Shown piece after piece: positions 5,009 through 5,739 of a stretch of 64,000 bases of DNA. The stretch lies in the NCBI RefSeq assembly GCF_016026235.1, contig NZ_CP065613.1; one strand, 5' to 3'. The notes beneath the pieces were generated by a model that saw nothing but the letters and a program-made list of their open reading frames with translations, was not told the DNA's origin and did no database searches. The translations under genes and the position numbers were made by a program. Position 1 is the stretch's first letter; the number at the start of each line of letters is the position of its first letter. Source of the stretch: Escherichia coli. Lineage in GTDB: Bacteria; Pseudomonadota; Gammaproteobacteria; Enterobacterales; Enterobacteriaceae.

Positions 5009-5739
5009 TGCCCAGACGAAATAGCCACACCATGTATAGAAAGCTCACAAAGCCAGTTTGCCACCAGGGCTGCGAGAGAGCCTCTCTTCCATCTTTGTCG
5101 AACCGTATTCCATTTTGAGATAACCCGGAAAATTCAGACTTAGTACTATTATGTGATAAAAGTCACATTTTTCCACATTGAATGAGCCAGTCAAGACTCA
5201 ATCATTTTTTGAACAAATAGATAAATTTTGCGCAACGGCAGTGAATACAGGAAAAATCGTTTTGAGCGATTTTATTTATCTTTGATATCGGCTTTATTAA
5301 TTCATTTAATCAATATATTAGCACTGAATACAATTATACCTTTTTATTTTTCTGTGTCATGATGCCTCCGTTATTAGCCTTTTATCGTCTTGTTTATATT
5401 TTTTGGGCCGGCATGATGCCGGCTTTTTTATGCCTTCATTAATGTGCGCGTGATCACACCAGCCGTTTAGCGCATCAATCATTGATACCCCCTATCTTTC
5501 CGCTAAACTCATAATATATTGATATGAATTGATAATTTTCATGAATACTTATGTTTAGAATTCATAATTCTGAATTATATTAAATATATTAGAAACATTT
5601 TGAAATCTTTTAAATATATTTGTTACATGTAATCTTTAAAATAAAATGAACTTCATAGAATAGTATCCAAATGTGCTTTTTTTGGATAACGGCACTTATT
5701 GATATATTCATGAAGATTATAATCACAAGGGAATACATA

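What the first reader, a model, noticed from the sequence alone, without database searches (positions are those of the whole stretch)
5400..5433. Orphan hairpin with T-runs in the 700-bp AT-rich region upstream of the porin gene
GCCGGCATGATGCCGGC is flanked by T-runs on both sides and no gene ends nearby on either strand, suggesting a small RNA terminus or a remnant. A tiny SD-ATG frame (8 codons) lies just beyond on the minus strand.
Basis: seen in the sequence. Interest (0 to 1): 0.25.

Follow-up and report, generated by a model that had tools for sequence, protein, structure and literature searches.

The report
Terminator of the known RseX sRNA
The "orphan" hairpin is the transcription terminator and Hfq-binding 3' end of RseX, a well-described small regulatory RNA of Escherichia coli that most automated genome annotations do not list; it is ordinary and already known.

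Summary
The hairpin is real: stem GCCGGC/GCCGGC at 5407-5412/5418-5423, loop AUGAU, with T6 runs at 5399-5404 and 5424-5429. It is not orphan. Rfam matches the whole rseX model (RF01401) at 5341..5430 on the + strand with 96.9 bits (gathering score 50, E 9e-14), and the hairpin is that model's 3' terminator. The curated K-12 record annotates rseX (b4603) at the same position between drpB (yedR) and yedS. The window copy differs from it by two substitutions and a U-tail of 6 instead of 8. RefSeq records of other strains, including one identical to the window, carry no feature there, which is why it looks orphan. The two T-runs are the usual Hfq-binding layout: U-rich stretch, GC hairpin, U-tail. 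The minus strand has only A-runs, so the terminator works in one direction. The minus-strand "SD-ATG" mini-frame is the mirror image of RseX's anti-Shine-Dalgarno seed (CCUCC), which pairs with the ompA and ompC ribosome-binding sites; its SD is not conserved. The AT-rich surroundings fit the published H-NS silencing of rseX. Novelty: none. Interest: low.

The parts
5329..5334 (+). Probable -10 element (TACAAT) of the rseX sigma-70 promoter, 7 nt upstream of the annotated 5' end. The -35 is poor (TTAATC at 5306-5311, 3 of 6).
   Evidence: Read from the sequence. The position is inferred from the K-12 5' end mapped onto the window. It is conserved in Escherichia. The literature reports a sigma-70 promoter and a 5'-RACE-mapped primary transcript (PMC8313858, citing Chen 2002 and Douchin 2006). 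My consensus scan did not call it.
5341..5429 (+). rseX gene (RseX sRNA, 89 nt here; 91 nt in K-12).
   Evidence: Rfam RF01401 at 5341..5430, 96.9 bits against a gathering score of 50, E 9.4e-14, model positions 1-94 of 94. K-12 ncRNA rseX b4603 aligns end to end with 2 substitutions and a U-tail shorter by 2.
5354..5378 (+). Weak 5' hairpin of RseX: stem 5359-5363/5370-5374 plus 5354-5355/5377-5378, loop GCCUCC at 5364-5369.
   Evidence: Rfam consensus structure; the MFE fold reproduces it. The stems are invariant in 8 sequences, while the loop is the most variable part of the RNA.
5360..5382 (+). Target-pairing (anti-Shine-Dalgarno) region, RseX nt 20-42.
   Evidence: Predicted duplexes with K-12 ompA -23..-4 (-19.3 kcal/mol) and ompC -28..-5 (-19.0 kcal/mol). 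In each case 0.5% of 1000 shuffles did as well. This matches the published predicted ompA site, 'region 5' (PMC8313858, citing Guillier 2006).
5399..5404 (+).
   Evidence: Read from the sequence. A run of at least 5 T is invariant in all 8 aligned sequences. Its role as part of the Hfq-binding module is inferred from established knowledge of Hfq-dependent sRNAs; binding was not tested here.
5405..5425 (+). Rho-independent terminator hairpin: core stem 5407-5412/5418-5423 (GCCGGC/GCCGGC), loop AUGAU at 5413-5417, extendable by A-U and two G-U pairs.
   Evidence: Terminator scan, + strand only. Fold energy -14.6 kcal/mol, z -3.26. Rfam terminator helix. Stem and loop are invariant in Escherichia, and Citrobacter amalonaticus has one two-sided change, G-C to A-U. 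The loop nucleotides of this terminator were shown to be needed for fepA repression by RseX (PMC11979758).
5424..5429 (+). 3' U-tail (6 U here; 7-8 in other E. coli).
   Evidence: Read from the sequence; comparison across strains.

Best explanation
The hairpin at 5405-5425, with its downstream T6, is the intrinsic (rho-independent) terminator of rseX, an ~89-nt Hfq-dependent trans-acting small RNA transcribed on the + strand from about 5341. Transcription starts 7 nt downstream of a TACAAT -10 element. RNA polymerase terminates at the GC-rich stem followed by the U-tract. In the finished RNA, the upstream U-run, the hairpin and the 3' U-tail together form the 3' module that binds Hfq and stabilises the sRNA. 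The single-stranded region further 5' (nt 20-42, containing CCUCC) pairs with the ribosome-binding sites of ompA and ompC mRNAs and represses them. The terminator loop itself has a published second role in repressing fepA. The gene sits in an AT-rich, H-NS-silenced intergenic region, so it is normally almost silent. Shown here: family membership, synteny, terminator anatomy, conservation, and complementarity to ompA and ompC. Taken from the literature: Hfq dependence, repression of ompA, ompC, fimB, ihfB and fepA, and H-NS silencing. Inferred: that this strain's allele behaves like the K-12 allele.
For: Rfam RF01401 rseX matches at full length with 96.9 bits against a gathering score of 50, and the hairpin is the model's terminal helix. 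K-12 MG1655 annotates ncRNA rseX b4603 between drpB and yedS. The window has the same gene order: yedJ 4076-4771, drpB 4811-5113, porin 5740-6798, hchA 7390-8241. It aligns to the K-12 rseX region at 98%. The terminator scan calls the site on the + strand only, and the hairpin has z -3.26. The locus is single-copy and present in 4901 of 5426 complete E. coli genomes. Homologs in E. albertii, E. whittamii, two Escherichia sp. and Citrobacter amalonaticus all pass the Rfam threshold and keep the drpB-rseX-porin order. The terminator stem is invariant, with one compensatory pair in Citrobacter. The seed pairs with the ompA and ompC TIRs far better than shuffles do. Literature: the 91-nt RseX represses ompA and ompC via Hfq (PMC7648144 and PMC8313858, citing Douchin 2006). 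It is H-NS-silenced and seen natively only in hns mutants (PMC8313858). Its 3' end (RseX+52) alone represses fepA, and this depends on terminator-loop nucleotides, Hfq and RNase E (PMC11979758).
Against: There are no transcription data for this strain, so the 5' and 3' ends are inferred by homology. The U-tail has 6 U, the shortest in my small sample (6-8), which might weaken termination or Hfq binding. The + strand promoter has a poor -35 and my consensus scan did not call it. Covariation support is minimal, with one two-sided change in 13 pairs, because the sequences are too similar; the support is conservation rather than covariation. The whole-RNA fold is not more stable than shuffles (z -1.46), which is usual for a mostly unstructured sRNA body.
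Confidence: 0.95

Rival explanations
1. rseX in this strain is an evolutionary relic. The sequence is homologous to RseX, but it is permanently silenced and has no physiological role, so the hairpin is a 'remnant' in the first reader's second sense.
For: RseX is undetectable in wild-type cells in every condition tried and appears only without H-NS (PMC8313858). About 10% of complete E. coli genomes lack the locus, and it is classed as a variable sRNA lost secondarily in several lineages (PMC3318445). The neighbouring drpB carries a nonsense codon in this strain. The U-tail is the shortest seen.
Against: The terminator stem-loop and nt 30-60 of the RNA are invariant across five Escherichia species, and largely so in Citrobacter, while the flanking intergenic DNA diverges. 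That points to purifying selection. The window allele's loop change (U26 to C) strengthens predicted ompA and ompC pairing rather than degrading it.
Confidence: 0.05
2. The hairpin terminates a small protein-coding gene on the + strand, the 44-codon TTG-start ORF at 5228..5362.
For: The mechanical ORF ends 45 nt upstream of the hairpin.
Against: The frame is not conserved. It is 44 aa in E. coli, 26 aa in Escherichia sp. MOD1 and 17 aa in E. whittamii, E. albertii and sp. E1V33. It always has only a TTG start, and the stop codon is absent in Citrobacter. Most of the ORF lies upstream of the mapped RseX 5' end, within the promoter region.
Confidence: 0.01
3. It is a bidirectional terminator, or a terminator or leader element for a minus-strand transcript that includes the 8-codon SD-ATG frame at 5360..5334.
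For: The palindromic stem folds equally well on the minus strand (-13.0 kcal/mol, z -3.48). GGAGG lies 4 nt upstream of an ATG on the minus strand.
Against: On the minus strand the stem is followed by CCAAAAAA, not a U-tract, and the scan calls no terminator there. The mini-frame's SD is GGAGG only in this allele. It is GGAAG in K-12 and GGGGC, GCGGT, GTAAG or GGTGT in other species, and the peptide shortens to 5 aa in Citrobacter. The ATG lies inside the -35-like hexamer of the only strong minus-strand promoter-like site, which places it upstream of that site's start point. The GGAGG is fully explained as the complement of RseX's CCUCC anti-SD seed.
Confidence: 0.01
4. It is a chance GC-rich palindrome, or a copy of a dispersed repeat (REP-like), in AT-rich intergenic DNA.
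For: The simple terminator pattern occurs about as often in shuffles of this region (0.9 expected, 1 found).
Against: It is a single-copy locus (median 1 place per genome). It is part of a 90-nt full-length Rfam match, and its position and sequence are conserved across genera.
Confidence: 0.005

Closest known systems
RseX sRNA of E. coli K-12 (rseX, b4603; Rfam RF01401)
   Same: Same locus (drpB/yedR - rseX - yedS-type porin), same strand and same length class. The terminator stem-loop is identical and identity is 97-98%. The complementarity to the ompA and ompC ribosome-binding sites is the same.
   Different: There are two substitutions inside the RNA: nt 9 A to U, and nt 26 U to C in the hairpin-1 loop, giving CCUCC instead of CUUCC. 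The U-tail has 6 U instead of 8. The downstream porin gene is intact and of a divergent allele here, whereas K-12 has the yedS pseudogene.
Hfq-binding 3' module of enterobacterial sRNAs (U-rich stretch + rho-independent terminator hairpin + poly-U tail), as in SgrS, RyhB and others
   Same: A U6 run, a 6-9 bp GC-rich stem and a U6 tail. A weak Rfam hit of the same stretch to the RyhB terminator (21.2 bits, below threshold) reflects this shared layout.
   Different: This is an architectural class, not a homologous family. Hfq binding of this allele was not tested here.
Terminator loops of SdsR and ArrS, and the OxyS-fhlA kissing loop
   Same: [quoted passage not shown] The loop here (AUGAU) is identical to K-12.
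   Different: Unlike OxyS, no direct pairing of the RseX loop to the target was detected (PMC11979758). The mechanism is unresolved, and nothing in this window adds to it.
sRNA genes next to porin genes: micF beside ompC, micC beside ompN
   Same: A small Hfq-dependent RNA gene lies next to a porin gene and represses other outer-membrane proteins rather than its neighbour. Here RseX shows no better-than-chance pairing with the adjacent porin's TIR, but strong pairing with ompA and ompC. micF lies next to ompC in K-12.
   Different: micF and micC are transcribed divergently from their neighbours (my recollection for micC-ompN, not checked here). rseX is co-directional with and upstream of the porin. 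Co-regulation of rseX and the porin has not been shown.

Membership tests
Rfam RF01401 rseX (RseX Hfq-binding sRNA) | Covariance-model score at or above the curated gathering threshold, over the full model | tested here: met
   96.9 bits against 50, E 9.4e-14, model positions 1-94 of 94, window 5341..5430 +.
Rfam RF01401 rseX (RseX Hfq-binding sRNA) | Genomic position between drpB (yedR) and the yedS-type porin gene, on the same strand as the porin | tested here: met
   Window order is yedJ, drpB, rseX, porin, hchA. The K-12 annotation has the same order. Six other species representatives keep drpB-rseX-porin.
Rfam RF01401 rseX (RseX Hfq-binding sRNA) | 3' rho-independent terminator (GC-rich stem followed by a U-tract) on the sRNA strand | tested here: met
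   Called by the scan on the + strand only. Energy -14.6 kcal/mol, z -3.26. U6 tail.
Rfam RF01401 rseX (RseX Hfq-binding sRNA) | Complementarity of the sRNA body to the translation-initiation regions of ompA and ompC | tested here: met
   Nt 20-42 against ompA -23..-4 gives -19.3 kcal/mol, and against ompC -28..-5 gives -19.0 kcal/mol. In each case 0.5% of 1000 shuffles did as well.
Rfam RF01401 rseX (RseX Hfq-binding sRNA) | Primary transcript from its own sigma-70 promoter with its 5' end at the annotated +1 | not testable with these tools
   A TACAAT -10 lies 7 nt upstream of the homologous +1, but the -35 is poor and the scan did not call it. The 5' RACE evidence is for K-12 only (PMC8313858, citing Douchin 2006).
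Rfam RF01401 rseX (RseX Hfq-binding sRNA) | Hfq binding and Hfq-dependent repression of targets | not testable with these tools
   The sequence features of the Hfq 3' module are present. Function is known from K-12 experiments only (PMC8313858, PMC11979758).
Bidirectional intrinsic terminator | U-tract following the stem on both strands (an A-run upstream and a T-run downstream on one strand) | tested here: not met
   The + strand has T-runs on both sides, so the minus strand has A-runs on both sides and no U-tract after the stem.
Small protein gene (minus-strand 8-codon frame, or + strand 44-codon ORF) | Conservation of the start, frame, length and ribosome-binding site among homologous loci | tested here: not met
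   The SD of the mini-frame varies and is lost in most species, and the peptide has 5 aa in Citrobacter. The + strand ORF varies through 44, 26 and 17 aa, has TTG starts only, and lacks its stop in Citrobacter.

The most novel reading that the evidence does not exclude
The drpB-rseX-porin arrangement may be a conserved, H-NS-silenced 'porin-swap' module. [quoted passage not shown] With only 6 U, the terminator in this strain might also leak, so that some rseX transcription reads through toward the porin gene 310 nt downstream. My evidence does not exclude this. Synteny is conserved across Escherichia and in Citrobacter amalonaticus. RseX pairs with ompA and ompC but not with the neighbour's TIR. 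The porin body is a divergent cassette between conserved flanks. [quoted passage not shown] I recall the general idea of an sRNA next to a porin repressing other porins from micF/ompC and micC/ompN, so even this would extend a known theme.
Probability: 0.12. Interest if true: 0.35.

Novelty: already known. Interest (0 to 1): 0.06.

Why it matters
It matters little as a discovery. RseX has been known since 2002-2006, has its own Rfam family and is annotated in K-12. The practical lesson concerns annotation. RefSeq (PGAP) records of non-K-12 strains leave rseX unannotated (0 features under the match in the records examined), so a sequence-only reader sees an "orphan" terminator. Two details may interest RseX specialists. 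The natural allele here changes the seed loop from CUUCC to CCUCC, with predicted pairing to ompA and ompC stronger by 2.7 kcal/mol. The terminator stem-loop, recently shown to have a regulatory role of its own in fepA control, is invariant across Escherichia species.

Tried and rejected
1. A full-length duplex prediction of the RseX body (nt 1-66) against 90-nt leaders gave long, uninformative duplexes (z -1.5 for ompA and ompC, about +1 for the neighbouring porin). I replaced it with a seed-restricted test.

2. I tested whether RseX regulates its neighbouring porin. The result was -6.8 kcal/mol with 72% of shuffles as good, so direct pairing at the TIR is rejected. Only -30..+10 was tested.

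3. Covariation analysis of the Rfam structure on 8 sequences found only one two-sided change, too little variation to be informative.

4. The original RseX paper (Douchin et al. 2006, doi 10.1074/jbc.M600819200) is not in the held library. Its findings are cited second-hand through PMC8313858 and PMC7648144.

5. Other Rfam hits in 4700-6000 were STnc430 on the minus strand (22.5 bits against 47) and RyhB (21.2 bits against 55). Both are far below threshold and driven only by the terminator hairpin, so I rejected them.

6. The first frame walk for the + strand ORF was off by one base (first column). It was redone correctly.

7. The small-ORF, bidirectional-terminator and chance or repeat readings were rejected.

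Full report
**Observation.** The sequence at 5399-5430 reads TTTTTT GG GCCGGC ATGAT GCCGGC TTTTTT A. The core stem is 5407-5412/5418-5423 and the loop is AUGAU. An internal A-U pair and two G-U pairs from the flanking GG/UU extend the stem to 9 pairs. As RNA the 32-nt stretch folds to -14.6 kcal/mol, with z -3.26, and 1 of 200 dinucleotide shuffles folds as well.

A simple terminator scan calls the site on the + strand only (5405..5425). It finds 1 site in 4700-6000 against 0.9 expected from shuffles. The pattern alone is therefore not beyond chance, and the significance comes from what follows. The minus-strand 8-codon frame is also real: ATG at 5360-5358, stop at 5336-5334, and GGAGG at 5369-5365.

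**What it is.** An Rfam scan of 4700-6000 on both strands, at E up to 1, gives one significant hit. It is RF01401 rseX at 5341..5430 on the + strand, with 96.9 bits against a gathering score of 50, E 9.4e-14, covering model positions 1-94 of 94. The hairpin is the model's terminal helix. The two other hits, STnc430 and RyhB, are far below threshold and rest only on the terminator.

The flanking ORFs are vsr, dcm, yedJ and drpB(yedR) on the minus strand, and a porin and hchA on the + strand. The curated K-12 MG1655 record annotates "ncRNA rseX b4603, small regulatory RNA RseX" at 2033649..2033739, between drpB and the yedS pseudogene. The window aligns to that region at 98%. Within the RNA there are two substitutions, nt 9 A to U and nt 26 U to C, and the U-tail has 6 U rather than 8.

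**Why it looked orphan.** The 361-bp region around the hairpin is present once per genome in 4901 of 5426 complete E. coli genomes, yet the RefSeq feature column under the match is "none". Strain MS8345 is 100% identical to the window here. Its annotation has drpB (pseudogene, internal stop) followed directly by the porin, with no RNA feature between them. Four further records show no feature in this stretch, and a fifth only the edge of drpB. The gene is known but is not propagated by automated annotation.

**Conservation.** A scan of one genome per species (100,044 species) with the Rfam-conserved core found six loci. They are E. coli, E. albertii, E. whittamii, two unnamed Escherichia species and Citrobacter amalonaticus. 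All pass the Rfam threshold at 70.9-95.2 bits, and all keep the drpB-rseX-porin order.

In the alignment the terminator stem and loop are invariant throughout Escherichia. Citrobacter has ACCGGC/GCCGGU, which is one two-sided G-C to A-U change, and a loop AUUUU. Of the pair cells, 99% are standard pairs. With so little variation, this is evidence of conservation rather than of covariation.

Variation is concentrated in the hairpin-1 loop (5364-5369). It reads GCCUCC here, GCUUCC in K-12 and O157, GCUUAC in E89 and AACUCC in E69. U-tails range from 6 to 8, and one strain has UCUUUUUU. About 10% of genomes lack the locus. This agrees with the published classification of rseX as a variable sRNA lost secondarily in some lineages (PMC3318445).

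**How it works.** The steps shown here are as follows.
- The + strand carries a TACAAT -10 at 5329-5334, 7 nt upstream of the position homologous to the K-12 5' end.
- The hairpin plus U-tract is a one-directional intrinsic terminator. The minus strand has A-runs on both sides of the stem and no U-tract.
- RseX nt 20-42 (UGAUGCCUCCGUUAUUAGCCUUU) is predicted to pair with ompA -23..-4 at -19.3 kcal/mol and with ompC -28..-5 at -19.0 kcal/mol. In each case 0.5% of 1000 shuffles matched this. The K-12 allele gives -16.6 and -16.3 kcal/mol.

The steps taken from the literature are as follows.
- RseX is a 91-nt RNA that represses ompA and ompC in an Hfq-dependent way. It was found as a multicopy suppressor of RseP essentiality (PMC8313858 and PMC7648144, citing Douchin et al. 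2006).
- It also represses fimB and ihfB (PMC8313858).
- It is not detectable in wild-type cells, but is seen in hns mutants and is strongly up in hns stpA mutants (PMC8313858).
- A truncated form lacking the first 51 nt (RseX+52) corresponds to window ~5392-5429, almost exactly the flagged feature. It represses a fepA-lacZ fusion 23-fold. That repression needs the terminator-loop nucleotides, Hfq and RNase E, apparently without direct pairing to fepA (PMC11979758).

The inferred step is that the T-run upstream of the hairpin, together with the hairpin and the U-tail, is the standard Hfq-binding 3' module of enterobacterial sRNAs. That is established knowledge and was not tested here.

The AT-rich surroundings, with 21-37% G+C over 5100-5700 against 52-59% G+C in the flanking genes on the left, fit the H-NS silencing.

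**The mini-frame.** The minus-strand GGAGG is simply the complement of RseX's CCUCC anti-SD loop. In K-12 it reads GGAAG, and in other species GGGGC, GCGGT, GTAAG or GGTGT. In Citrobacter the frame has only 5 codons. Its ATG also lies inside the -35-like hexamer of the only strong minus-strand promoter-like site, so that promoter could not transcribe it. I therefore reject it as a gene.

The + strand 44-codon ORF at 5228..5362 is likewise not conserved. It runs to 44, 26 or 17 aa with TTG starts only, and it has no stop in Citrobacter.

**Neighbouring porin.** RseX shows no better-than-chance pairing with the adjacent porin's translation-initiation region (-6.8 kcal/mol, 72% of shuffles as good). 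The porin (5740-6798, 352 aa) is intact. It scores best against the OmpF, PhoE and OmpC models but below all curated cut-offs.

Homology to K-12 at 97% stops at 5846 and resumes at 6784. The coding body is therefore a divergent cassette, 45-58% identical in protein to K-12 yedS and about 53% identical to the porins at this locus in other Escherichia. This leaves open a speculative "porin-swap module" reading, given in the section on the most novel reading. It would extend the micF/ompC and micC/ompN theme rather than found a new one.

**Verdict.** The feature is the terminator and Hfq-binding 3' end of the already known sRNA RseX. Novelty is "already known" and interest is low.

Noticed in passing
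window 4811..5113 (-), stop at 5047..5045: drpB (yedR), a cell-division protein gene, carries a TGA nonsense codon at codon 23 where K-12 has TGG (Trp). RefSeq marks it as a pseudogene ('internal stop') in strain MS8345, which is identical to the window at this locus. An internal ATG (Met36 of the K-12 protein) leaves a 65-aa ORF at 4811..5008.
   Followed up: partly
window 5740..6798 (+), divergent part about 5847..6783: The porin downstream of rseX is intact (352 aa), unlike the K-12 yedS pseudogene. Its coding body is a divergent cassette: nucleotide homology to K-12 (97%) ends at 5846 and resumes at 6784. Protein identity is 45-58% to K-12 yedS and about 53% to the porins at the same locus in other Escherichia species and Citrobacter. 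NCBIfam places it nearest OmpF, PhoE and OmpC, but below all curated cut-offs.
   Followed up: partly
window 5360..5333 (-): The best sigma-70-like match in the region (ATGACA, 16-nt spacer, TATAAT; 11 of 12) is on the minus strand. It overlaps the 5' end of rseX and lies back-to-back with the rseX -10 (TACAAT 5329-5334). This could be a divergent or bidirectional promoter pair in H-NS-bound AT-rich DNA. It is conserved in K-12.
   Followed up: no
window 5364..5369 (+): The hairpin-1 loop of RseX is the most variable part of the RNA, both within E. coli (GCCUCC, GCUUCC, GCUUAC, AACUCC) and between species, although it overlaps the predicted ompA/ompC pairing site. The window allele (C26) is predicted to pair 2.7 kcal/mol better with both targets than the K-12 allele.
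   Followed up: partly
window 5424..5429 (+): The RseX U-tail has 6 U here. It has 7-8 in the other E. coli sampled, and one strain (EC08) has an interrupted UCUUUUUU. The consequence for termination efficiency and Hfq binding is unknown.
   Followed up: partly
window 5100..5740: The whole drpB-porin intergenic region has 21-37% G+C, against 52-59% in the flanking genes on the left. This fits published H-NS/StpA silencing of rseX and its surroundings. The 310 bp between the terminator and the porin ATG were not analysed for regulator sites.
   Followed up: no
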